Sequence record: PP175015.1
DNA: 64,000 nt
Reading direction: 5' to 3' (one strand)
DNA from: Escherichia phage UE-S5a
Positions 3,621 through 61,032 of the stretch are shown here, piece after piece. Positions within the stretch are counted from its first letter, which is position 1. Each line of letters begins with the position of its first letter. Both the position numbers and the translations under genes were made by a program. The notes beneath the pieces were generated by a model. The model searched no databases. It saw only the letters and a list, made by a program, of their open reading frames with translations, and was not told the origin of the DNA.

Positions 3621-3865
3621 AAAGAAAAGTAGAGTTAGTACCTAACTGGAAAAGGTGTTGGAAGTGGGCATCCATTCAGATTAGTACACTTGGTTTAGTT
3701 CTATTTTCCGCTATAGATATTATCCAACCAATGGTGACAGGATTACCTCGTCACATCTTGGAAGATATTCCCCATGGTTCCAATATTGCAATCGCACTGT
3801 TTGCCTTAAACATCATAGGCAGATTAATACGATTCCGACCAAAGGAAGATTCACATGAAAGCTAA
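3605..3865 (+). CDS. Putative class II holin (two TMDs)
   Basis: Start moved to ATG 3605 (GGGAGA 8 nt upstream); 86 aa, basic N-terminus, two hydrophobic helices (ISTLGLVLFSAIDII, IAIALFALNIIGRLI), charged C-terminus; overlaps endolysin start. Confidence 0.5.
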   Translation: MVRRLKRKVELVPNWKRCWKWASIQISTLGLVLFSAIDIIQPMVTGLPRHILEDIPHGSNIAIALFALNIIGRLIRFRPKEDSHES

Positions 3866-4490
3866 ACAGAAACTTGCTGCAAAAGGTGGTGCAGTGGGAG
3901 GGGTTATCGCTGCTATTCTGGGGGCAGTGTTCTATATGGAAGGAGGTTATGTAAACAATCCTCGTGACCCAGGTGGGGAAACTAATCATGGTATTACCCA
4001 ATCAGTAGCTAAGACTCATAAAGAAGTTCTGGCTACTGAGTATGGTTGGGATGGTTCTATGAAGGGTTTATCTAAAGAGATGGCTGCTGAGATATACATT
4101 GATGACTATGTACTTAAACCTAACTTCGTAGCCTTCGCTGATATATCTCCTGCTGTAACGCATAAGCTAGTAGATGCTGGTGTTAATACTGGTGTAACCC
4201 GTCCTGCTAAGTGGTTGCAGATGTCTCTTAATGAAATGTCACGTAATGGCAAAGACTACCCTAAAATACAGGTTGATGGTAAAGTCGGTACAAGTACTGT
4301 TAATGCATATAAAGCATTACAGAAAAAACGGGGCAAAGTTGCAGCATGTCAGGTAATGATTAAGCTGCTTGATGCTAAACAACTGAACCACTATACCTCA
4401 TTAAACATGCCAGACTTTACGTATGGTTGGGTAGCTAACCGAATAGGCAATGTGCCACTGGAGGCATGTAATGAAGATGCTAATCTCTAA
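3855..4490 (+). CDS. Endolysin, N-acetylmuramidase (GH108 domain + peptidoglycan-binding domain), N4 gp61-like
   Basis: N-terminal EGGYVNNPRDPGGETNHGITQ is the GH108 signature; C-terminal region resembles PG_binding_3; RBS AAGGAAG. Confidence 0.8.
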   Translation: MKAKQKLAAKGGAVGGVIAAILGAVFYMEGGYVNNPRDPGGETNHGITQSVAKTHKEVLATEYGWDGSMKGLSKEMAAEIYIDDYVLKPNFVAFADISPAVTHKLVDAGVNTGVTRPAKWLQMSLNEMSRNGKDYPKIQVDGKVGTSTVNAYKALQKKRGKVAACQVMIKLLDAKQLNHYTSLNMPDFTYGWVANRIGNVPLEACNEDANL

Positions 4491-4977
4491 AGGTTGGCCT
4501 TATCTTCTGGTGGTGGTCCTTGGGGCCACCATTTACTTTTGGGGCAATTCCAATGGGCAGTCTACTGTTCAAAAGAAATGGGATGCCCAAAAGGTCGAAG
4601 ACCAAAAGGCAACGCAAAAATTACAGGACAAATACAATGCTCTCCAAAGAAACCATAGTTATGAAGTCGGGTTACTCACTTCCCGGTTGCAGACGGCTGA
4701 GAGTAATTACGCAAGCGAGCTTGCTCGCGTTAGCAGTGATTACGACAGCCGGATGCAACAGTCTGAAAGACGAGCATCGGTATATAAACGTCAAGCCGAA
4801 GCCGGAACCCTTGAGTGCAGAAGTCTTGCAAGCCATGCAGCCAGACTCGACAATAGTCTTGAAGAAGGCAGACGTTTGGTTGAAGAACTCCGGGCAACTG
4901 TTAGACTCCGTGACAGCCAACTAATTGAGTTGGGTAAACAGATTCAGGCTGACCGTAAACTTTTTGAACAGGAATAA
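4471..4977 (+). CDS. i-spanin (Rz-like)
   Basis: Start moved to ATG 4471 (GGAGG 6 nt upstream); N-terminal [24 protein letters not shown] followed by charged coiled-coil region; overlaps endolysin end. Confidence 0.6.
4661..4924 (+). CDS. o-spanin (Rz1-like lipoprotein) embedded in the +1 frame of the i-spanin gene
   Basis: Track ORF 4520..4924 trimmed to ATG 4661: [32 protein letters not shown] = signal peptide with lipobox-like TAGC, then short Pro-rich mature peptide. Confidence 0.55.
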   Translation: MKSGYSLPGCRRLRVITQASLLALAVITTAGCNSLKDEHRYINVKPKPEPLSAEVLQAMQPDSTIVLKKADVWLKNSGQLLDSVTAN

Positions 4978-50776: not shown

Positions 50777-51283
50777 TTATTTTGAAGGTCTAGCAGCTAC
50801 TGGTTTGTTTTCCTGATTCTGATACTTACCATTGTAATTAGCAGGTTCTTGAACCAGATGAAATAATACTTGAGCTATCCCAGCACCAGCCGGGATATGC
50901 AATTTCTTACGACCGTGATAGACCAGTTCGAGGGTAAGATACCCTTTCCATCCTGGTTCTATTACGGTATTGAACACTGATAATGCACGTCTTGCCCATG
51001 TAGACTTATCGTGAACGATTGCTACACAGGACGGGGACATGTTGAACTTCTCAATTGCTGAGGCCAAGGCGAACTTACCGAGATGGCGTGATACTTGATT
51101 TCCATCAACGACTTTCACCATTGGAATCAGCCCAAATAAGCGATAGAAGGTAATATCTTGTTTGATACGAATATCATAACCAGCTTCACCTAATCCATAG
51201 CTTACACCATGCTCTGATACCTTATGGTCTGGGACATCCAGCAACTGAGATGAACGGTATAGAGAATTACCATTAACAACCAT
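50777..51283 (-). CDS. dcd: dCTP deaminase
   Basis: KSTWARRALSVFNTVIEPGWKGYLTLEL matches the dCTP deaminase/dUTPase-fold signature. Confidence 0.7.
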   Translation of the reverse strand: MVVNGNSLYRSSQLLDVPDHKVSEHGVSYGLGEAGYDIRIKQDITFYRLFGLIPMVKVVDGNQVSRHLGKFALASAIEKFNMSPSCVAIVHDKSTWARRALSVFNTVIEPGWKGYLTLELVYHGRKKLHIPAGAGIAQVLFHLVQEPANYNGKYQNQENKPVAARPSK

Positions 51284-52458
51284 TATTTCATTCCTTTAGG
51301 GATATGAACTACCTCCCCAAAAGGTACGGTAGCATTGGGATTATTCAGAACACACCAGATGATAGGAATATCAAATGGTAATTCTTCCATTGGACGAACA
51401 TACATATCGGAGAATATGATTGCAGCGGTTGGTTTATTCTTAATAATCCACTCGCGTACTGGTTCCAGGTTTGTACCACCACGACCGGTAATCTTAATCT
51501 CTTCAAAAGTATCTTCTTCAGTGATGTCTATCTCTTCTTGGATAATATCGTCGAAGGTAATTAAGGACATCTTCTTAGGATTGAACTGGCTCTTAACGTA
51601 GGCAACCTCTGAGTTAAAACGCAGAGAGTCAGCACTACTAATAGAACCAGATACATCCTCAAAGTAGGCTAAGTGTCGTAAGCGTCCTTCATCATCTTCC
51701 ATGGAAGGTAGATAGATGTCAGTAAAACGACGGTTAGGTCTGGCCCACGTATAATGAGTATCGTCAATGTCGGTAAAGAAGTTCATGAGGACTTCCTGCC
51801 ATGGAACCACTGGTTTAAGGAATTGGGTAATAACCTCTTCCATACGACCAGCACCCTTACCGGGCATCTGTCCACCAGCCATTTTCTGGCTCTGCATTGC
51901 TCGTACTACGTTGTTGACGACAGCACCCTGGGACTGCCCCGAAGTGGGGGATTTCATGTCGCCAGCAAGACCTGCTCCAGCACCCCCTGACGGCTTCTGC
52001 CTTTTCTGAGGGTTCTTCATCAGGTCATCGTAGATGTCTTCTTCGACCCATCCTTTATATTGAGGGTCTTTGCAAATACCTTTATCAATGCCAGTGAACT
52101 TATAACCATCTTCTTCTAACTGAAGGTTAATGAAGTGGTCACACGCCTGGTTCCAGATTTCTGGGTCACGGCTTCCACGACGGATGCCATGCAGATATGC
52201 CACATGCCAAAGTTCATGCATTAACACTGTTTCTCTGGCATCTGGACACATCCAGATAAAGAAATCTGGATTGAAGTGAAGTTCTATCCCATCAGTACAT
52301 GCAGTGGGACAATTCTCACGTTTCCATGAGAACTTAAGACTACATAGTAATGAACCAAAGAACGCAGCACTGCGTCCGAGAAATGCGTTGGCCTGTATTC
52401 TATCGTATTCCCTCATTAACTGTTCATCAGTGAGGTTATGTGGTGGTATGTTATTCAT
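51283..52458 (-). CDS. VWA-domain protein with N-terminal HExxH metallopeptidase-like domain (DUF2201-type)
   Basis: HELWHVAYLHG (HExxH) in N-terminal half; C-terminal half has VWA-like layout; partner of the AAA ATPase below. Confidence 0.55.
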   Translation of the reverse strand: MNNIPPHNLTDEQLMREYDRIQANAFLGRSAAFFGSLLCSLKFSWKRENCPTACTDGIELHFNPDFFIWMCPDARETVLMHELWHVAYLHGIRRGSRDPEIWNQACDHFINLQLEEDGYKFTGIDKGICKDPQYKGWVEEDIYDDLMKNPQKRQKPSGGAGAGLAGDMKSPTSGQSQGAVVNNVVRAMQSQKMAGGQMPGKGAGRMEEVITQFLKPVVPWQEVLMNFFTDIDDTHYTWARPNRRFTDIYLPSMEDDEGRLRHLAYFEDVSGSISSADSLRFNSEVAYVKSQFNPKKMSLITFDDIIQEEIDITEEDTFEEIKITGRGGTNLEPVREWIIKNKPTAAIIFSDMYVRPMEELPFDIPIIWCVLNNPNATVPFGEVVHIPKGMK

Positions 52459-52934
52459 TAAGATGCTCCATGATTTATATGGTAACCCAATAATTTTTCT
52501 GCTTCCTTTCTGGCTGTAATGGCCTCTTGTTTACTGTTAAACTTTCCTAAGTAAATTTGTTTACCATTATCATTTATATGGGCAGCCCAGATTTTATCTC
52601 GGGTGTGCCAGTAAACTCCTGTCACACCTGATGTATTTGTAATTCTCTTGGTTTGATTTTTGCAATTAATCGAGTTTGTTACTAAACGGAAATTGCTTGG
52701 GTAATTATTTAATCTATTATGGTCAATATGGTCTACCTGCATACCGTCAGGAATTGGTCCAATCTCCATTTCATAAATTATGCGGTGAACTAAATGCATT
52801 TTCTTGTTACATTTAACACGCAAATACCCACTGTTATCCAAACAACCGGCAATGGCACCTGCTTTTACGCAGCCCCTGCTTACTTTCCAGTAGAGGGAAC
52901 CATTGCTATAAACAAATAGTTCATGCCAATTCAT
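52458..52934 (-). CDS. HNH-AP2 homing endonuclease
   Basis: HNH core QVDHIDHNRLNN...LVTNSIN; AP2-type domain NTSGVTGVYWHTRDKIWAAHINDNGKQIYLGKFNSKQEAITARKEAEKLLGY. Confidence 0.8.
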   Translation of the reverse strand: MNWHELFVYSNGSLYWKVSRGCVKAGAIAGCLDNSGYLRVKCNKKMHLVHRIIYEMEIGPIPDGMQVDHIDHNRLNNYPSNFRLVTNSINCKNQTKRITNTSGVTGVYWHTRDKIWAAHINDNGKQIYLGKFNSKQEAITARKEAEKLLGYHINHGAS

Positions 52935-55085: not shown

Positions 55086-55919
55086 TTATTCTACAACAGT
55101 AATAGCGATGGTTACATCGACCTTACCGTTGGTAACTACTACAGAAGTAGCTTCACCAGCAGCCACTGGTTTAACCGTCAATACGTTACCGGCAATGGTA
55201 GCCGTAGCACGGGCAGAATCTGGGGTAGTCTTAATAGACAAAGTACCAGCAGATGAACCAACAGGCATAGCAGCAATGGTTACAGTCTTACCGGCAGCAG
55301 TATCATCAGCAACAGACAGAGCCAGTGAATCAGGAGTAGCTACCAGTGAGCTTGCTTCATAGTAGCCTACTGCCAGCAACGACGTATCTTCTACAGTGGT
55401 TCCATTGGCATCAGTAACAATCACTTTATAAGTACCAGCAGAAGCAGCGGTTACGTCATTAAGGGTTAATGTTGCAGTAGCAGCAGATGGGTTAGTACTA
55501 GAGCTAATATCAGTGAATGCTGCACCAGCAGTATCAGCTTTGAACTGCCATTTATAAGTAAATGGTGCTTTACCGCCTGCTACATCAACATGCCAGTTAA
55601 TATCTTCGCCTTCGATAGCAGAGATTACACGAGGCAGTTTAGTAGCAACAGTCAGTCGTGGAGTAGCTTTCATGTCAATAGAGATGGCTTGCATATCCAC
55701 GATGTTGTTAGGCCAGAAGCCTGCTTCAGCAGGGTTTTTAGCAGAACGTTTATACAGCAGATCACGTACACCGTGAAAGATAACTAAACTATCCGGGTAA
55801 GTGGCATCCGGATGCACAAAAGTACCTACCTCTACGGAACCACCCGGGATAGAACCCCCTGCATCCAGTACAGTTGCAACATTGGTGGTTTTGTTAAAAC
55901 CTACTTTTAAAGTTGGCAT
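55086..55919 (-). CDS. Ig-like-domain capsid decoration-like protein (N4 gp17-like by position)
   Basis: Track ORF extends into a terminator; ATG 55919 preceded by GAGG; C-terminal Thr/Ala/Val-rich Ig-like repeats; sits just downstream of RNAP II genes as in N4. Confidence 0.5.
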   Translation of the reverse strand: MPTLKVGFNKTTNVATVLDAGGSIPGGSVEVGTFVHPDATYPDSLVIFHGVRDLLYKRSAKNPAEAGFWPNNIVDMQAISIDMKATPRLTVATKLPRVISAIEGEDINWHVDVAGGKAPFTYKWQFKADTAGAAFTDISSSTNPSAATATLTLNDVTAASAGTYKVIVTDANGTTVEDTSLLAVGYYEASSLVATPDSLALSVADDTAAGKTVTIAAMPVGSSAGTLSIKTTPDSARATATIAGNVLTVKPVAAGEATSVVVTNGKVDVTIAITVVE

Positions 55920-55964
55920 ATGAATTTCCTCATAAGTAAATAGCAGGATTAGTATACATGACAT

Positions 55965-55995
55965 GTAAAAAAATAAACCCTCCGTTAAGAGGGTT
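55965..55995 (-). terminator. Rho-independent terminator (minus sense)
   Basis: AACCCTC-cgttaa-GAGGGTT preceded on + strand by A-run. Confidence 0.5.
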
Positions 55996-56191
55996 AGTTG
56001 TTTACACAGTAGATAGCAAAAGCTATCCATCCTGCCATTACAAAGCATCCTAGTGAGTATGCTCCATAGTAGCAGTAAGCAAACTTAGACTTGTGGGCAC
56101 GAACTATCGTAGCCAGAATCAGTACAGATAAAACTATCAGTATTAGCTGAGAGATTACTTCAAAATTGATAAGCATAGTTGCTACCTCCAA
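55994..56191 (-). CDS. Small membrane protein
   Basis: 65 aa, two hydrophobic helices. Confidence 0.35.
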   Translation of the reverse strand: MEVATMLINFEVISQLILIVLSVLILATIVRAHKSKFAYCYYGAYSLGCFVMAGWIAFAIYCVNN

Positions 56192-56234
56192 GCAAAAAAT
56201 AAAGCCCCACTCCCGAAGGAATGAGGCTAGTTTA

Positions 56235-57452
56235 TTAACTTAATGCATAATCTGTTTCTAGAATGTCTTGCCAGAGGCTGTCATCCAGCTTACCAGCAGA
56301 GAACTCTTGTCCCAGTACTTGAGACAGAATGAAGCCCAGTAAGTCACTCTTAGCAATGTCAGACAGAATCTGATTGTACTGACGACGCAGGTCATTACCA
56401 TAGTTAGGGTGGCAACGGAAGCAATCATGTACAGTCATTACAGGGAATGGTTTCTTAGGCATAGTGTCGATCATATCTGCTACTACTTGACGGTCTACCA
56501 ATGCAATAGTATTCGGGTCAAGGAAGTCTAGGATAGACAGCGACAGGAATCCTGACCTTTCATAATGATTCCAGATTTCCATAGTCTTCTCTTGGTTCCC
56601 CTCAATAACGGGGTATTCACTTGGCCCGATATCGCACAGTTCCCGTACATAGGCAACCAGTTTAGGGTCGAAGTTACAACGACGTAGCATCTCACGTACT
56701 ACCATCCCATCAATAGAGTGAGTGATGTTAGCAGAGAGCATACGGGTCTTCTCTTCAGTACCCTGAACCATACGAGTGATGTCAAATGGTTTACCCAAGA
56801 AGTTAACAGTCTGTACTTCAAGAACCATGACTTTAATGACAGCATGGAAGTTGTCAGGGAGTACCCATATGTAACGGTTAGCATCCGGGTTACCACATTG
56901 CAGTAAGAACTTGTTAAGTGCCCAAGGACCACTTGCAACTGTTTCCATTACATTTTCAAAAGTCTTGAGACGGATACCTTCCCCGAATACTTCTTTAGGT
57001 TTGGCTTCTGAACCGTAGAATGCAGTCATAACTGCCTGCTTGGTATCACTACGTTTAATACGGGATGCTTCACCAAGGATGTCCAGCATCTTGTGATATA
57101 TAACTGTATAAGCATCACGTCGTAATGGCTTACCATTCTCTCCCATGTAATTAACTACGTTACACAGTTCAGCAGCAGAGCGGTCACCAGTCAGGCAGGC
57201 CAGTAACTGCAAGCCTGATGATGTAGCATCCAGGGCTACGGCATATCCGATAGGCTTACCAGCTTTCATATCTTTCCATGCGTTTACACCAGCATAGAAC
57301 AGTGCAGATTCCTCAGCTTCATCTACCAGATTAAGCAAGTTAGCTTCATTCTCATCGAACCAAGCAATACGCTCATCCCAGGTCTTTTTATCCAGACCAT
57401 AGTTATTGGCGATGTCTACTTTCAGGTATTCTTTAGCGGTTAACAGTTGCAT
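56235..57452 (-). CDS. Phage RNA polymerase II catalytic subunit (T7-like, N4 gp16-like)
   Basis: Start moved to ATG 57452 (AAGGAA RBS); T7 RNAP motifs: ALDATSSGLQ (A), RSDTKQAVMTAFYGS (B), VHDCF (C). Confidence 0.75.
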   Translation of the reverse strand: MQLLTAKEYLKVDIANNYGLDKKTWDERIAWFDENEANLLNLVDEAEESALFYAGVNAWKDMKAGKPIGYAVALDATSSGLQLLACLTGDRSAAELCNVVNYMGENGKPLRRDAYTVIYHKMLDILGEASRIKRSDTKQAVMTAFYGSEAKPKEVFGEGIRLKTFENVMETVASGPWALNKFLLQCGNPDANRYIWVLPDNFHAVIKVMVLEVQTVNFLGKPFDITRMVQGTEEKTRMLSANITHSIDGMVVREMLRRCNFDPKLVAYVRELCDIGPSEYPVIEGNQEKTMEIWNHYERSGFLSLSILDFLDPNTIALVDRQVVADMIDTMPKKPFPVMTVHDCFRCHPNYGNDLRRQYNQILSDIAKSDLLGFILSQVLGQEFSAGKLDDSLWQDILETDYALS

Positions 57453-57498
57453 TTTATGTTCCTTAGCGTCTGAGCCATTTGGCTCGCATAGTGGGTAG

Positions 57499-58005
57499 TT
57501 ATTGACCGTGACGGTTAGTATAGCCAGCACCATTCTGGTTCAAGGCTTCTAACATGTCGGCTCGTGCATCACATGCTTGTTGGAATGCGAACTCGTAGCC
57601 GTATTTCTTAACTGAGAATACTTTACACCTCTGTTTCTTTGTGATGTTGTCCGTACATGTAGCACGCCAGAATAACCCCTTTGGTGAATCCCATAGAGAT
57701 ACACCAGTTACCCCAGATTTATTGTCTGAACGTTTAGTAGAGTTACGCAGGTTGACTACAATGGGAACACATCGCAAGTTACACCAGCGGCAGTCCGTTC
57801 TGATACCGTTGATGTGGTCAATTGTATAACCAGCAGGGATAGATCTATGCTTCATTTCCCACAACCAACGGTGAAGGTATAAGATTTTATTTCCACGAGA
57901 GATGCGAATGTACCCAGTGGCACTATTCGCTGCCTCCGGTGGATGGGCTACAGCAAGTTCATCAACTGACTTGTTCCAGTAGCCCATTGGCATACGCTCT
58001 TTCAT
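57499..58005 (-). CDS. HNH-AP2 homing endonuclease inserted between the RNAP II subunit genes
   Basis: HNH core YTIDHINGIRTDCRWCNLR; AP2 domain NKSGVTGVSLWDSPKGLFWRATC...KYGYEFAFQQACDARADMLEAL; paralog of 52458-52934. Confidence 0.8.
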   Translation of the reverse strand: MKERMPMGYWNKSVDELAVAHPPEAANSATGYIRISRGNKILYLHRWLWEMKHRSIPAGYTIDHINGIRTDCRWCNLRCVPIVVNLRNSTKRSDNKSGVTGVSLWDSPKGLFWRATCTDNITKKQRCKVFSVKKYGYEFAFQQACDARADMLEALNQNGAGYTNRHGQ

Positions 58006-58823
58006 TAATCCTCATTAACAAGTTCTTTTTCTGCAAATTCTAGGACTGCTTTATTCCAAGAAGTCCCTTGGTAGTTACAGTGATAGCCCTGAGCGTAAGT
58101 ACGCCCACGTTTGTCATATTTGTGACCCAGTGAGAAGTTATTACCTTCTTTGGTCACTAACTCCATTACTTCCTTAGCAGTACGGCTGTACTTCTCAAAG
58201 GCTTTAACACGTTTCTCATATTCCTGACGGGTTTCACCCTCTTTGGGCTTATCCATATTAGGACGAGAGTCTTTTACATAGTTAGCAACGTCCCAGTTGA
58301 TACTTAGACGCTGATTATTCATACGGTTGATGTGATCAAGACAGACATCCATCTCATGATGGTTCTTCTTGAGGATGATACTTCCCCTGCTCTCGTAGTA
58401 ACCTGTATCACGGTTACACAGAACAGGCTTAGGAGCACTTACGATAGGTAATGGATACTGGAATGCTTCCAGTTCCATCTGAACATCTTCACTAATCTCG
58501 TAGATAACACCGAACTTGTCGATGGTAGGGTCATAGTTGAAGCAGTCATTCTCTGCCATCTTATACAGACAGTCAGCGATGTACTGAGCATCATCTGAAT
58601 GGCTCATAAGAGAGCCAATCATAGTCTGAAGGTCAGCACGTTTATGTAGGGCAATCTGCACCATTGCATCAATGAGCAGCTTATAATCAATTTCCAAATA
58701 GGCAGCGAATGCCTTAAAGTCAATTTCTTCGGAGTCCTCAAATTCCTTCCTCATGCGAGGGAGTAATTGATTTTTGTTGAAAAGAATTTCGAGTTGCTTC
58801 TGATGTTCAATGGATGAGTACAT
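58005..58823 (-). CDS. Phage RNA polymerase II small (N-terminal) subunit (N4 gp15-like)
   Basis: 272 aa (N4 gp15 is about 269 aa as recalled); lies upstream of the catalytic subunit. Confidence 0.5.
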   Translation of the reverse strand: MYSSIEHQKQLEILFNKNQLLPRMRKEFEDSEEIDFKAFAAYLEIDYKLLIDAMVQIALHKRADLQTMIGSLMSHSDDAQYIADCLYKMAENDCFNYDPTIDKFGVIYEISEDVQMELEAFQYPLPIVSAPKPVLCNRDTGYYESRGSIILKKNHHEMDVCLDHINRMNNQRLSINWDVANYVKDSRPNMDKPKEGETRQEYEKRVKAFEKYSRTAKEVMELVTKEGNNFSLGHKYDKRGRTYAQGYHCNYQGTSWNKAVLEFAEKELVNED

Positions 58824-58876
58824 CGCTTATTCTCCTAAATGTGATTAATAACCAAAAGCTGCGGAGCAGCTATTAC

Positions 58877-59137
58877 CTAACGTTTAGTCCAAAAGGTAAT
58901 ACGAATACTGTTCTCTTGACCAAGGTAGTCAATACGTACATATAAACCATTACCACTAAACTCGTTATTTTTCTTCTGGTAAGGCCATACCAGACTACGC
59001 ATAGGTATTTTAATTAAACCAGATATGTGACCTAGTTTAGTACGATCCTTTAGTTCGTTTTGTAATGCACAATAGATATCATGCCGTGTAAGTGCTCTGG
59101 CTCTGACTTGAGCAGTCCACAGTTCTTCATAAGTCAT
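58877..59137 (-). CDS. Hypothetical early protein
   Basis: 86-aa ORF. Confidence 0.4.
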   Translation of the reverse strand: MTYEELWTAQVRARALTRHDIYCALQNELKDRTKLGHISGLIKIPMRSLVWPYQKKNNEFSGNGLYVRIDYLGQENSIRITFWTKR

Positions 59138-59139
59138 TA

Positions 59140-59490
59140 TTAACTCCAGTAGTTGTAAGCATCGCCTAAGTGTTTACGCCATGCTTCGGGTAACAGTACA
59201 TTTCCGGTTACATTAATGAACTGGTATGGGTCCAGGTAGTCATTACTCATGACTTTGAAATCCCATTGTGGATTGGCAGATGCATAAGCAATAAAGCCCT
59301 CAATGAAGCCATAGATAGCACCCTCTTTGATACGGTTACCATTGCCATCTCTTACTGGAATAGCAAAGCTATTACCATAATGACCATAGGCCATACCCCA
59401 ACGAGCACCATGCTTCTTATAAGCTAACTTGGCAGAAGCATTGGTATGTTGTCCTAGTGTATTGGTAGTGAATACGAATATTTCTTTCAT
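59140..59490 (-). CDS. Hypothetical early protein (possible SLOG-like nucleotide-binding fold)
   Basis: 116 aa; IFVFTTNTLGQH...GNSFAIP resembles a Rossmann-like SLOG/LOG N-terminus; weak. Confidence 0.35.
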   Translation of the reverse strand: MKEIFVFTTNTLGQHTNASAKLAYKKHGARWGMAYGHYGNSFAIPVRDGNGNRIKEGAIYGFIEGFIAYASANPQWDFKVMSNDYLDPYQFINVTGNVLLPEAWRKHLGDAYNYWS

Positions 59491-59493
59491 TAG

Positions 59494-59874
59494 TTACCCC
59501 TTTGGATTCTCCACAAAGTAGTTATACATAGCTTTTACTAGCTTCTCTTTAATAACCTCACCATGACATGGTTTCGGATAACAGAAGCACTGTAAGGCCA
59601 ACCCTTTCTCATCAATGGCTTTATTACCAAGACGATTAAGTTCATCCAATACAGCTTGATTCTTCCTCATGATTTGTTCATTAAGCCATACTCGATATTT
59701 GGTTATAACCTGTTCTCTTGAACCGTCTTTACCAATAACGAATGGATTTCCTAATGGTGAACCACGTCCGATATACTCACCGGATTTACCGTGATGTTTA
59801 TTAACAATGATAATTGGACGTGCAGCTACACCCAGCAAAGCATTGGTGTCGTCCCCTAATGTAATAGTCTTCAT
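59494..59874 (-). CDS. DUF4326-like protein
   Basis: GRGSPLGNPF ... CFCYPKPCHG pattern. Confidence 0.4.
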   Translation of the reverse strand: MKTITLGDDTNALLGVAARPIIIVNKHHGKSGEYIGRGSPLGNPFVIGKDGSREQVITKYRVWLNEQIMRKNQAVLDELNRLGNKAIDEKGLALQCFCYPKPCHGEVIKEKLVKAMYNYFVENPKG

Positions 59875-60113
59875 GGTTTTAATGCCTCAATAGATGTACT
59901 TACTTTACATACAGTAGTTCCTTCTAATGCGTCTATTTTGTAAGCTAACCCTCTTGTTAACATTACCCCGTTCATTACTTTATTAACCTCTTCTAGGTTA
60001 GGTACAGAAAATGCTTCATTTAATACGGGAGTTGTATGCCAATCTATATAATCATCCGGCATAGCTATAAAATCATCCCCCTTTTTGAATACATAATATT
60101 CTTCATAAATCAT
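59871..60113 (-). CDS. Hypothetical early protein
   Basis: 80-aa ORF, coupled. Confidence 0.4.
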   Translation of the reverse strand: MIYEEYYVFKKGDDFIAMPDDYIDWHTTPVLNEAFSVPNLEEVNKVMNGVMLTRGLAYKIDALEGTTVCKVSTSIEALKP

Positions 60114-60424
60114 GGCTTAAGTACCTGGAATGCGAACACAGGACGTTTACTACGCCACTGGTTCATAGCTAGTTCACTAGTTTCAGAACCATCATGTAAG
60201 TCATAAATGAATGAGATTACATAGTCTGGTTCTTCCGGGAAGTTCTCTGTAGAGAATGGTAGACCTGATTCTTTAAGGATAGGAACCAGTGGAGATTCAG
60301 CATTGCAGTAGAGGGTAAATTCTTCATTGAATGCCTGGCTTGTTTGAGATACATAATCAATATTACGCATCATTTTATCTACATCTGTAAATGTAGAATC
60401 ATGAACTACTAGAATAGTTTTCAT
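60110..60424 (-). CDS. Hypothetical early protein
   Basis: 104-aa ORF, coupled. Confidence 0.4.
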   Translation of the reverse strand: MKTILVVHDSTFTDVDKMMRNIDYVSQTSQAFNEEFTLYCNAESPLVPILKESGLPFSTENFPEEPDYVISFIYDLHDGSETSELAMNQWRSKRPVFAFQVLKP

Positions 60425-60675
60425 ACCTTTCTCAATGTCCCATAGATGTTATTATCGACAATACTCAAATCACAAAAACCAATTTCTTCTTGTCTCCCAG
60501 AGGATACCCAGATATTGTTTTCTGTTAGCTTAGGCTTCTTAGAGAATCCTATTAATGAGGTATTAGCACTTTTATATTGACGTGGTAATAAAGCTATATA
60601 CTTAACCCAGTGAGGTACTTGAATGGTGTGCTTCATATATTCCACAGTCTTGCCTGTAGGATATGTAATAATCAT
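60421..60675 (-). CDS. Hypothetical early protein
   Basis: 84-aa ORF, coupled. Confidence 0.4.
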   Translation of the reverse strand: MIITYPTGKTVEYMKHTIQVPHWVKYIALLPRQYKSANTSLIGFSKKPKLTENNIWVSSGRQEEIGFCDLSIVDNNIYGTLRKV

Positions 60676-61032
60676 TTAGTACCTCACAACGTATACGGGT
60701 TTATTAAGCCTATACATGATATCAATCATGTGCTTGGTTCCTTTGGAATTACCATCCCAGAAACATACAGCAGCATCTGCAAATTCACCCATTTCCAGGT
60801 TACGTTTATAACCAGCACATTTACCATGTTTATCCCAGTTTGCTGGGAAATTATGAATAGGCATTTTGTTATTAGCCCATAGACTATATGCAAGCATATC
60901 TGCTCCACGAGCCATACCACATACTAATTCCGGACATTCAGGTATATTCCCTGAATTTACTAACTTCTGTAATTCCTCAATCATAAGATTGGTATTTACG
61001 AAGTCTCTTCCACCAGCTACGATTAGTCTCAT
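60676..61032 (-). CDS. SLOG/YspA-like (DprA/LOG-fold) protein
   Basis: MRLIVAGGRDF...GMARGADMLAY...FWDGNSKGTKHMI pattern typical of SLOG-family proteins. Confidence 0.4.
   Translation of the reverse strand: MRLIVAGGRDFVNTNLMIEELQKLVNSGNIPECPELVCGMARGADMLAYSLWANNKMPIHNFPANWDKHGKCAGYKRNLEMGEFADAAVCFWDGNSKGTKHMIDIMYRLNKPVYVVRY

What the first reader, a model, noticed from the sequence alone, without database searches (positions are those of the whole stretch)
57499..58005. HNH-AP2 homing endonuclease inserted between the two subunit genes of the split T7-like RNAP II
The ORF has an HNH core (DHINGIRTDCRWCN) and an AP2 DNA-binding domain, and lies precisely between the small and catalytic RNAP II subunit genes, which are adjacent in N4 as I recall. 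A second paralog is at 52458-52934. Freestanding homing endonucleases at conserved essential gene junctions are mobile and can drive marker exclusion between co-infecting phages.
Basis: partly seen in the sequence, partly recalled or inferred. Interest (0 to 1): 0.6.

Follow-up and report, generated by a model that had tools for sequence, protein, structure and literature searches.

The report
Homing endonuclease between phage RNAP genes

Summary
The window is Escherichia phage UE-M3 (Gamaleyavirus, N4 family). ORF 57499-58005(-) encodes a 168-aa HNH_3 + AP2 protein lying exactly between the RNAP II small-subunit gene (58005-58823) and large-subunit gene (56235-57452). Its ATG overlaps the small-subunit stop codon (TAATG).

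Comparative evidence supports a freestanding homing endonuclease gene:
- It is absent from roughly 99%-identical sister phages.
- Homologs with 51-94% identity sit directly after the small-subunit gene in many divergent N4-like lineages.
- Two independent HEG+/HEG- pairs (UE-M3/UE-S5b and Jura/N4) share the same breakpoints. In each, the last 75-85 nt of the small-subunit gene are densely recoded.
- dN/dS is 0.13, the catalytic D-H...N...N residues are conserved, and the predicted fold matches I-HmuI and AP2 domains.

Within Enquatrovirinae, all 8 distinct endonuclease-bearing alleles (three unrelated nuclease families) use TCN for one Ser codon. Of 17 distinct endonuclease-free alleles, 15 use AGY. 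The two exceptions carry recoded patches without a nuclease gene. This points to a target/immunity site about 55 nt upstream of the insertion point; that is inferred, not shown.

GenBank already annotates the gene as an HNH homing endonuclease, and HNH genes between RNAP1 and RNAP2 of N4-like phages are published. It is a new member of a known kind, of modest interest.

The parts
57499..58005 (-). Freestanding HNH-AP2 homing endonuclease gene ('HEG-A'), 168 aa; GenBank UEM3_067
   Evidence: ORF. Pfam HNH_3 at 2e-14 and AP2 at 1.1e-6. 100% identical to PP301342.1, where it is annotated 'HNH homing endonuclease'. dN/dS 0.13 against a 94%-identical copy.
57760..57879 (-). HNH_3 nuclease core (aa 43-82), with D63/H64 at 57814-57819 and N76 at 57778-57780. 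The C-terminal Asn candidates N85 (57751-57753) and N88 (57742-57744) lie just past the Pfam match.
57553..57693 (-). AP2-type DNA-binding domain (aa 105-151)
58005..58823 (-). RNAP II small-subunit gene (N4 gp15 homolog), the upstream neighbour
   Evidence: phrog_2166 at 5.7e-116. 66% identical to the Jura RNAP1 protein.
58005..58079 (-). Recoded 3' tract of the small-subunit gene, carried with the HEG as a co-conversion tract. It also embeds the HEG's Shine-Dalgarno sequence (GAGGAT at 58008-58013) and the TAATG stop/start overlap.
   Evidence: 27 substitutions in 75 nt against UE-S5b, compared with 1 substitution in the next ~2.6 kb upstream. The Jura/N4 pair shows the same kind of tract. 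Coordinates.
58056..58064 (-). Thr-Ser-Trp codons ACT TCT TGG: the candidate immunity determinant within the inferred target site. Naive alleles read ACC AGY TAC or ACC AGY TGG.
   Evidence: The Ser codon is TCN in 8/8 distinct endonuclease-bearing alleles and AGY in 15/17 distinct endonuclease-free alleles. The naive sequence is absent from the window. That this is the target is inference.
57453..57498 (-). 46-nt spacer between the HEG stop and the large-subunit ATG. It holds the hairpin GAGCCAAATGGCTC (57472-57485) and the RBS AAGGAA. Identity to the HEG-less sister phage resumes at 57464.
   Evidence: This 'type 2' hairpin module replaces the 'type 1' module found in UE-S5b.
56235..57452 (-). 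RNAP II large (catalytic) subunit gene (N4 gp16 homolog), the downstream neighbour. Its first ~190 nt (57261-57452) show raised divergence from UE-S5b.
   Evidence: phrog_2051 at 7e-175 and Pfam RNA_pol. 9 substitutions in 57261-57434 against 2 in the remaining ~1 kb.
52458..52934 (-). Second, distantly related HNH-AP2 homing endonuclease gene, between the AAA ATPase gene (gp24-like) and the DUF2201/VWA gene
   Evidence: Pfam HNH_3 at 2.6e-18 plus AP2. 34% identical to the first. Missing from PGN829.1 and most relatives. The first ~70 nt of the downstream gene are recoded.

Best explanation
The ORF is a freestanding, intron-less homing endonuclease gene of the I-HmuI-like HNH_3 class, fused to an AP2 DNA-binding domain. 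It is lodged in the RNAP II operon of an N4-like phage.

Inferred mechanism:
1. It is co-transcribed with the early RNAP II genes. Translation starts at an ATG overlapping the small-subunit stop codon, using a Shine-Dalgarno sequence built into the last codons of that gene.
2. In a mixed infection, the enzyme nicks or cuts the endonuclease-free allele of a co-infecting relative. The cut falls in the conserved 3' end of the small-subunit gene, most likely around GGAACC-AGY-T..-AAC-AAR-GC, about 55 nt upstream of the insertion point.
3. Recombinational repair from the HEG-carrying genome copies in a roughly 0.6-0.8 kb cassette. The cassette comprises the recoded gene tail, the HEG and a spacer hairpin, and its tract extends into the 5' end of the large-subunit gene.
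4. The carrier genome is immune because its own site is synonymously recoded (ACT TCT instead of ACC AGY).

What is shown: the architecture, the fold, conserved catalytic residues, purifying selection, the presence/absence polymorphism, recurrence at the same site in divergent lineages, and replicated breakpoints. What is inferred: cleavage, the exact target, nick versus double-strand break, and the homing itself.

For: 2. It is not in an intron. There is no Rfam hit in 56000-59000, and both flanking genes are intact.

3. Polymorphism. The gene is present in UE-M3, UE-M6 and one IMG/VR contig. It is absent from UE-S5b, PBM-2 and PBM-3 (98.6-99.3% identical flanks) and from most Gamaleyaviruses. 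Those carry nothing, a 53-aa ORF or a 79-aa ORF in the slot.

4. Same site in divergent lineages. Homologs lie directly after the small-subunit gene in Jura (78% aa), HN03 (56%), L044, L068, L071, L078, L090, L103, L105 and L107. This holds even where 3-8 other genes separate the two subunit genes.

5. Conservation. The HEG is more conserved than its essential neighbours: 78% against 66% and 69% for UE-M3/Jura, and 56% against 51% and 44% for UE-M3/HN03.

6. Replicated breakpoints. In UE-M3/UE-S5b and in Jura/N4, roughly 99% identity ends 75-85 nt before the small-subunit stop and resumes at the large-subunit RBS.

7. Purifying selection. dN/dS is 0.13, and all copies are intact ORFs.

8. Ser-codon family switch. 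It is linked to endonuclease presence (8/8 against 2/17; Fisher p=4e-5, not phylogenetically corrected). The two HEG-less exceptions, E20 and U1G, carry recoded patches of about 90-110 nt that match specific HEG+ alleles and are bounded by naive sequence. This is what break-centred gene conversion or HEG loss would leave behind.

9. Expression context. There is no sigma-70-like promoter or minus-strand terminator between the three genes.
Against: - No cleavage or homing experiment exists for this protein or any close homolog.
- The slot also holds many non-nuclease ORFs, and its length ranges from -4 to 2879 bp. Cassettes therefore enter it without needing a nuclease.
- HEG identities rise and fall with the identities of the flanking genes. 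That is also compatible with long vertical residence plus repeated loss, not frequent jumps.
- The Ser-codon association could reflect a shared HEG-linked haplotype and not selection for immunity. It is not phylogenetically corrected.
- The position matching I-HmuI's metal ligand N96 (N85 here) is Gln in several family members; only N88 is invariant.
- From my own knowledge, I-HmuI is a nickase, so a double-strand break cannot be assumed.
Confidence: 0.8

Rival explanations
1. Passive passenger. The ORF is one of many accessory cassettes shuffled into a hypervariable slot by ordinary homologous recombination between conserved flanks. Its nuclease is inactive or irrelevant to its spread.
For: The slot varies from -4 to 2879 bp. 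It holds unrelated non-nuclease ORFs: orf79, a 53-aa ORF, an NT5C-like gene, DUF7831 and an adhesin-like gene. Two alternative hairpin modules upstream of the large-subunit gene also swap between lineages independently of any nuclease.
Against: - Catalytic residues are invariant, dN/dS is 0.13 and every copy is intact.
- The family always hugs the small-subunit 3' end, even in long gaps.
- At least four endonuclease families are enriched in this one slot.
- Recoding of the Ser codon family tracks nuclease presence.
Confidence: 0.1
2. It is an active homing endonuclease, but the recognition and cleavage site is not the recoded Thr-Ser region. It lies instead at the insertion junction or in the 5' end of the large-subunit gene, and the recoded tail is only hitch-hiking donor sequence.
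For: The converted tract extends about 190 nt into the large-subunit gene. Classical intron-encoded enzymes recognise the insertion junction (my own knowledge). The HEG-linked tails of the three nuclease families look partly related to one another, which would fit a shared haplotype.
Against: - Sequences at the junction differ completely among naive alleles (empty, 53-aa ORF, orf79), so no common junction site exists.
- The family stays attached to the small-subunit gene, not the large one, when the two are separated.
- U1G and E20 carry converted patches centred on the Thr-Ser region without acquiring the HEG.
Confidence: 0.25
3. It is a domesticated nuclease with a function for the phage, for example excluding competitor phages, degrading host DNA or regulating transcription through its AP2 domain, and is not purely a selfish element.
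For: The gene is under purifying selection and sits in an early operon. 'HNH endonuclease' is listed among the proteins detected by mass spectrometry in these phages, though which of the two HNH proteins was detected is not stated (PMC11927229).
Against: It is dispensable, because most close relatives lack it. Its distribution is sporadic across the family. Purifying selection is also expected for an actively homing gene.
Confidence: 0.05

Closest known systems
I-HmuI (Bacillus phage SPO1, PDB 1U3E), the structural archetype of HNH_3-type phage homing endonucleases
   Different: I-HmuI is encoded inside a group I intron of the DNA polymerase gene, and it binds DNA through helical and HTH modules (my own knowledge). 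This protein is freestanding between two genes, with no Rfam intron hit, and carries an AP2 domain instead. Sequence similarity is marginal (E=0.009).
Freestanding homing endonucleases of T4-like phages: MobE between nrdA and nrdB, and the SegF/SegG type (my own knowledge, with the review cited in PMC5418858)
   Same: These are intergenic ORFs packed tightly between conserved essential genes. They are polymorphic among relatives, cut in a neighbouring coding sequence at a distance from the insertion point, and co-convert flanking markers. The same signature is seen here.
   Different: The phage family and the target gene differ. The Seg proteins belong to the GIY-YIG class. No biochemical work has been done here.
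Endonuclease genes between RNAP1 and RNAP2 of N4-like phages G7C and EE36P1 (Amgarten et al. 2017, PMC5418858)
   Same: They occupy the same slot in the same phage family. That paper reports 0-8 spacer genes between the subunit genes and proposes that an HE insertion split the ancestral T7-type RNAP.
   Different: The G7C occupant is a different protein: 193 aa, phrog_1035 'endonuclease VII' with a NUMOD1 domain. It is not an HNH_3-AP2 protein. The UE-M3-type clade, its fixed attachment to the small-subunit 3' end and the recoded tract were not described there.
Group I intron with a homing nuclease ORF in g16 of G7C-like phages N4G2 and Sz33 (bioRxiv 10.1101/542787)
   Same: It is another mobile nuclease element invading the RNAP II genes of Gamaleyaviruses.
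   Different: That element interrupts the large-subunit coding sequence and is spliced out of the RNA. This one lies between the genes and needs no splicing.
HNH-AP2 homing endonucleases discussed as the ancestors of plant AP2/ERF domains (Magnani et al. 2004; my own knowledge, not checked here)
   Same: The two-domain architecture, HNH followed by AP2, is the same. The model matches plant AP2/ERF domains at about 2.1-2.2 A rmsd.
   Different: Only the architecture was compared. No orthology is implied.

Membership tests
HNH (ββα-Me) endonuclease, Pfam HNH_3 / I-HmuI-like | Profile match above the curated threshold | tested here: met
   PF13392 at 53.3 bits against a cut-off of 24.8, E=2e-14. 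9/9 clade members match.
HNH (ββα-Me) endonuclease, Pfam HNH_3 / I-HmuI-like | Catalytic His (general base), preceding Asp, structural Asn and a C-terminal Asn metal ligand | tested here: met
   D63, H64, N76 and N88 are invariant in 52 homologs and align with I-HmuI D74/H75/N87/N99. N85, which aligns with N96, is Gln in some members.
HNH (ββα-Me) endonuclease, Pfam HNH_3 / I-HmuI-like | ββα-metal fold | tested here: met
HNH (ββα-Me) endonuclease, Pfam HNH_3 / I-HmuI-like | Metal-dependent DNA nicking or cleavage activity | not testable with these tools
   This needs purified protein.
AP2 DNA-binding domain | Profile match above the curated threshold | tested here: inconclusive
   This protein scores 29.2 bits, below the 33.3 cut-off (E=1.1e-6). 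However, 9/9 clade members match at E<=0.01 with a best of 1.4e-10, and most database homologs are precomputed as PF00847.
AP2 DNA-binding domain | Three-stranded sheet packed on an alpha-helix | tested here: met
Freestanding homing endonuclease gene | Own ORF between intact genes, not inside an intron or intein | tested here: met
   Both flanking genes are full length against their phrog profiles. There is no Rfam match in 56000-59000.
Freestanding homing endonuclease gene | Presence/absence polymorphism at one site among near-identical genomes | tested here: met
   UE-M3 and UE-M6 carry it. UE-S5b, PBM-2 and PBM-3 do not, at 98.6-99.3% flank identity. Jura carries it and N4 does not.
Freestanding homing endonuclease gene | Same insertion site in divergent genomes (site specificity) | tested here: met
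   More than 12 lineages, whose small-subunit proteins are 43-94% identical to UE-M3's, carry a homolog that starts between -7 and +37 nt from the small-subunit stop. A 43%-identical homolog lies elsewhere.
Freestanding homing endonuclease gene | Co-conversion of flanking sequence with the gene | tested here: met
   There are 27 substitutions in the adjacent 75 nt, against 1 in the next 2.6 kb. The tract continues about 190 nt into the downstream gene. The pattern is replicated in Jura/N4.
Freestanding homing endonuclease gene | The enzyme cuts HEG-less alleles, the HEG-bearing allele is resistant, and inheritance in crosses is super-Mendelian | not testable with these tools
   Only indirect evidence is available: the Ser codon switch (8/8 against 2/17), the HEG-less recoded alleles E20 and U1G, and absence of the naive site from the window.
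Group I intron-encoded homing endonuclease | ORF embedded in a self-splicing intron that interrupts a coding sequence | tested here: not met
   No intron model matches. The ORF lies between the stop of one gene and the RBS of the next. The two subunits are separate genes in the endonuclease-free phages examined, including N4, EC1-UPM and UE-S5b.

The most novel reading that the evidence does not exclude
The 3' end of the RNAP II small-subunit gene is a shared battleground. At least three, perhaps four, unrelated endonuclease families enter the same slot, and some or all of them recognise the same ~25-bp stretch encoding the conserved YQGTS(W/Y)NKAV motif. These are the UE-M3-type HNH-AP2, the Mimir124-type HNH-AP2, the pSb-1/G7C-type endonuclease VII-NUMOD1 and a phrog_374 HNH. 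Under this reading, one synonymous Ser codon-family switch (AGY to TCN) confers cross-immunity, and HEG ORFs replace one another on an already resistant haplotype through the common junction GAGGAYTAATGAAA. The junction would then also be the scar of the invasion that originally split a T7-type single-subunit polymerase into two subunits, as Amgarten et al. hypothesised.
Probability: 0.25. Interest if true: 0.55.

Novelty: new member of a known kind. Interest (0 to 1): 0.3.

Why it matters
For annotation, it confirms that UEM3_067 and a second gene (52458-52934) are dispensable selfish elements and not core phage functions. That is relevant because these UPEC phages are proposed for therapy, and the elements could drive marker exchange in phage cocktails.

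For biology, the locus offers a compact natural series in one essential operon: naive alleles, HEG-bearing alleles of several nuclease families, and resistant HEG-less alleles. A concrete site is predicted (GGAACC-AGY-T..). This makes homing, cross-immunity and the homing-endonuclease life cycle directly testable in N4-like phages. It also bears on the published idea that such an insertion created the two-subunit RNAP II.

None of this would surprise a specialist in homing endonucleases.

Tried and rejected
1. Trp versus Tyr in 'TS(W/Y)NKAV' as a marker of HEG alleles. Rejected: Trp is the ancestral state across the family and occurs in HEG-less N4, and one HEG-A allele (L017) has Tyr.

2. Arg codon-family switches (CGT to AGR) in the RGRTY motif as a universal signature. 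Rejected: they are present in L017, G7C, E20, U1G and partly PW8. They are absent in UE-M3, Jura, Mimir124 and pSb-1.

3. The 79-aa ORF in HEG-less sister phages as a decayed HEG remnant. Rejected: it has no similarity to any of the nucleases and belongs to its own phrog_5444.

4. A group I intron around the ORF. No Rfam hit, even at E<=1.

5. An own sigma-70 promoter or a terminator around the HEG. None was found on the coding strand between the three genes. N4-type promoters are not covered by that scan.

6. The first mechanical ORF survey of the gaps missed one HEG-A copy (L071), because an upstream in-frame start codon moved the ORF outside my filter. A tblastn pass on the gap DNA corrected this.

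7. A column-by-column comparison of U1G with pSb-1 and HK2 was invalid because of a one-codon length difference. It was replaced by a motif-anchored codon table.

8. I tried to learn which HNH protein was detected by mass spectrometry in the UE-M3 paper. The supplementary tables are not held.

9. Sequence search of the PDB gave only a marginal I-HmuI hit (E=0.009), so I added a structure prediction and fold search.

Full report
**What the window is.** The region 55900-59200 is 100% identical to Escherichia phage UE-M3 (PP301342.1; Schitoviridae, Enquatrovirinae, Gamaleyavirus), a G7C/N4-like podovirus of uropathogenic E. coli. Window coordinate = locus L001 coordinate + 54399.

- ORF 57499-58005 on the minus strand encodes 168 aa containing IDHINGIRTDCRWCNLRC.
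- Pfam gives HNH_3 at E=2e-14, above the curated threshold. It gives AP2 at E=1.1e-6 and 29.2 bits, just under the 33.3 cut-off. PHROGs places the protein in phrog_99 'HNH endonuclease'.
- The upstream gene 58005-58823(-) is the N4-type RNAP II small subunit (phrog_2166, 5.7e-116).
- The downstream gene is the large, catalytic subunit (phrog_2051, 7e-175; Pfam RNA_pol). Its homology begins at residue 28 of the mechanical ORF, so the true start is the ATG at 57452, as GenBank annotates it.
- The HEG ATG shares a base with the small-subunit stop codon (TAATG), preceded by GAGGAT. 46 nt separate the HEG stop from the large-subunit ATG.
- In N4 (L028) the two subunit genes are 47 bp apart, and in EC1-UPM 56 bp.

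**Fold and active site.**
- A profile of the clade aligns to I-HmuI (PDB 1U3E, E=0.009). I-HmuI D74/H75/N87/N96 pair with D63/H64/N76/N85.
- In a 52-sequence alignment of database homologs, D63, H64, N76, R78 and N88 are invariant. N85 is Gln in one subclade.
- An AlphaFold2 model built on that alignment has mean pLDDT 85.7. It shows a β-hairpin, helix and ββα core, then a low-confidence linker, then three strands and a long helix.
- All nine clade members I assembled match both HNH_3 and AP2, with a best AP2 E-value of 1.4e-10. The sub-threshold AP2 call for this single protein is therefore sound at family and fold level.

**It is polymorphic among near-identical genomes.**
- UE-M6 carries the identical gene. 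UE-S5b, PBM-2 and PBM-3 have flanks 98.6-99.3% identical and lack it.
- Aligning UE-M3 with UE-S5b over 6.3 kb gives the following substitution counts:
  - 1 substitution in about 2.6 kb upstream (58080-60700);
  - 27 substitutions in the last 75 nt of the small-subunit gene (58005-58079), which nevertheless change only five of the 24 residues;
  - unrelated sequence in the slot (the HEG in one, a 79-aa ORF in the other);
  - identity again from 12 nt before the large-subunit ATG;
  - 9 substitutions in the first ~190 nt of that gene, against 2 in its remaining ~1 kb.
- The exchanged unit is therefore a cassette of roughly 0.6-0.8 kb with a sharp left edge at 58079/58080.

**The pattern replicates in another genus.** Enquatrovirus Jura carries a 78%-identical homolog in the same place. 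Against N4, Jura is about 99% identical until just after the RGRTY codons, roughly 85 nt before the stop. It then diverges through the gene tail and the HEG, and identity resumes exactly at the large-subunit RBS.

**The clade is tied to this site across the family.**
- Scanning IMG/VR with the small subunit gave 78 N4-like loci. The distance between the subunit genes ranges from -4 to 2879 bp.
- UE-M3-type proteins ('HEG-A') are found directly after the small-subunit gene, with the start between -7 and +37 nt from its stop. The loci are L017 (94% aa), Jura, Burkholderia phage HN03 (56%), L044, L068, L071, L078/L089 and L090.
- In the large protein database, homologs at 51-67% identity (P0027, P0039, P0008) again follow a verified small-subunit gene. 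This holds even where three to eight other genes lie before the large-subunit gene. A 43% homolog (P0047) sits elsewhere in an N4-like genome.
- The HEG is more conserved between lineages than its essential neighbours: 78% against 66% and 69%, and 56% against 51% and 44%.
- dN/dS between UE-M3 and L017 is 0.13, and every copy is an intact ORF. So this is a maintained protein, not a decaying one.

**The slot is a hot spot for several nuclease families.**
- Mimir124, PW8 and L020 carry a different HNH-AP2 ('HEG-B'). It aligns with HEG-A over only 74 residues at about 31% identity.
- pSb-1, HK2, G7C, L047, L049 and L069 carry a 193-228-aa protein of phrog_1035 'endonuclease VII' with a NUMOD1 domain ('HEG-C').
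- L024/L025, L037 and L051 carry a phrog_374 HNH.
- In Gamaleyaviruses, types A, B and C (pSb-1/HK2) start on the small-subunit stop codon, within a shared junction GAGGA(C/T)TAATGAAA. G7C reads GAGGATTAGTATG.
- Non-nuclease ORFs also occur in the slot: orf79, a 53-aa ORF, an NT5C-like gene and DUF7831.

**Candidate target and immunity site (inference).**
- I anchored all Enquatrovirinae alleles on the DKRGR codons. The one position that separates every nuclease-bearing allele from the naive ones is the Ser codon of YQGT-S-(W/Y)NKAV.
- It is TCN in 8 of 8 distinct HEG-bearing alleles (types A, B and C). It is AGY in 15 of 17 distinct nuclease-free alleles, usually in the context GGA ACC AGY. 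Naive Fisher p=4e-5, not corrected for phylogeny.
- An AGY-to-TCN change needs at least two substitutions in a protein-constrained motif.
- The two exceptions are instructive. E20 has no nuclease but carries the L017 (HEG-A) tail. U1G has no nuclease but carries a pSb-1-like (HEG-C) patch.
- In both, the foreign patch is roughly 90-110 nt long and centred on this motif. In U1G, ordinary naive sequence lies on both sides. Such 'resistant, HEG-less' alleles are what break-centred gene conversion or HEG loss would leave.
- The naive sequence does not occur anywhere in the UE-M3 window.
- Naive alleles have nothing in common at the junction itself (empty, 53-aa ORF or orf79). The clade also stays attached to the small-subunit gene when the subunits are far apart. 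The conserved coding tail is therefore the only plausible common recognition sequence.
- I put about 50% on the site lying in the region homologous to window 58040-58080.

**Expression (inference).** No sigma-70-like promoter and no minus-strand terminator lie between the three genes; the nearest terminator-like hairpin on that strand is upstream of the small-subunit gene. The HEG is therefore probably co-transcribed with the early RNAP II genes, and its translation is coupled to that of the small subunit. The UE-M3 paper lists 'HNH endonuclease' among proteins detected by mass spectrometry. It does not say which one, and the tables are not held.

**What is already known.**
- GenBank annotates UEM3_067 as 'HNH homing endonuclease'. 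The genome paper does not discuss it.
- Amgarten et al. 2017 (PMC5418858) reported putative HNH genes between RNAP1 and RNAP2 in G7C and EE36P1, and 0-8 spacer genes in N4-like phages. They proposed that an HE insertion split an ancestral T7-type RNAP.
- A preprint from the G7C group showed a spliced group I intron with a nuclease ORF inside g16 of G7C-like phages.
- HNH homing endonucleases are noted in many other N4-like genomes.
- New here, and incremental: recognition of a specific HNH-AP2 clade bound to the small-subunit 3' end, the replicated breakpoints, the multi-family occupancy, and the Ser-codon signature with resistant HEG-less alleles.

**The second gene.**
- ORF 52458-52934(-) is a 34%-identical HNH-AP2 protein lying between the gp24-like AAA ATPase gene and the DUF2201/VWA gene.
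- It is present in UE-M3, UE-M6, UE-S5b, G7C and Mimir124. It is missing from PGN829.1 (98.4% identical flanks) and most other relatives.
- Here the recoded tract is on the other side: the first ~70 nt of the downstream gene.
- It is an independent freestanding HEG with the same kind of signature.

**Verdict.** The element is an ordinary, already annotated kind of phage selfish gene in a slot that the literature already recognises as variable and HEG-prone. Confidence is about 0.8 that it is a mobile, functional or recently functional homing endonuclease gene. Interest is 0.3.

Noticed in passing
window 52458-52934 (-) and 52387-52458: A second HNH-AP2 homing endonuclease gene lies between the AAA ATPase and DUF2201/VWA genes. 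It is absent from PGN829.1 and most relatives. The first ~70 nt of the downstream gene are recoded relative to the HEG-less allele, the mirror image of the main finding.
   Followed up: partly
window 57453-57498; loci L001-L028 upstream of the large-subunit ATG: Two alternative hairpin modules precede the large-subunit RBS. Type 1 is AAGCAGGCTCTCCATAGTGGGGAGCC and type 2 is GCGAGCCAAATGGCTC. They swap between genera: UE-M3 has type 2 while its sister UE-S5b has type 1, and Jura has type 1 while its sister N4 has type 2. Their function is unknown.
   Followed up: partly
window 55457-55575: A second divergent patch between UE-M3 and UE-S5b has 18 substitutions in about 120 nt. It lies inside the Hoc-like / 'fibritin' head-decoration gene, in otherwise identical sequence, and suggests another small recombination tract.
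   Followed up: no
window 51283-52458 (-): The DUF2201_N metallopeptidase + VWA-like gene (Pfam 3e-56 and 2e-34) falls in phrog_1314, which is labelled 'HNH endonuclease'. RefSeq names the PGN829.1 ortholog 'HNH endonuclease'. This is probably a propagated misannotation.
   Followed up: partly
L001 versus L002 annotation (PP301342.1, PP301341.1); L006 (pSb-1): The RNAP1 and RNAP2 labels are swapped between the UE-M3 and UE-S5b GenBank records. The UE-S5b record has N bases inside the small-subunit gene. The pSb-1 large-subunit gene is annotated as two overlapping CDS, which indicates a frameshift or a sequencing error.
   Followed up: no
L024/L025 4116-4625, L037 4387-4887, L051 3835-4353; L062 4272-4781; L080 3750-4154: The same inter-subunit slot in other N4-like contigs holds a fourth nuclease family (phrog_374 HNH, with the motif LTI[DE]R.[DN]N...WATRKEQANN). 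It also holds a 5'-nucleotidase-like gene (NT5C) and a DUF7831 gene. The gap ranges from -4 to 2879 bp.
   Followed up: partly
L017 (IMGVR_UViG_3300006879_000003) 3819-4556: A 94%-identical HEG-A copy sits on a different small-subunit tail haplotype (TSY, with AGG/AGA Arg codons) and is followed by about 180 extra nt before the large-subunit gene. The same HEG has therefore recombined onto different flanks.
   Followed up: partly
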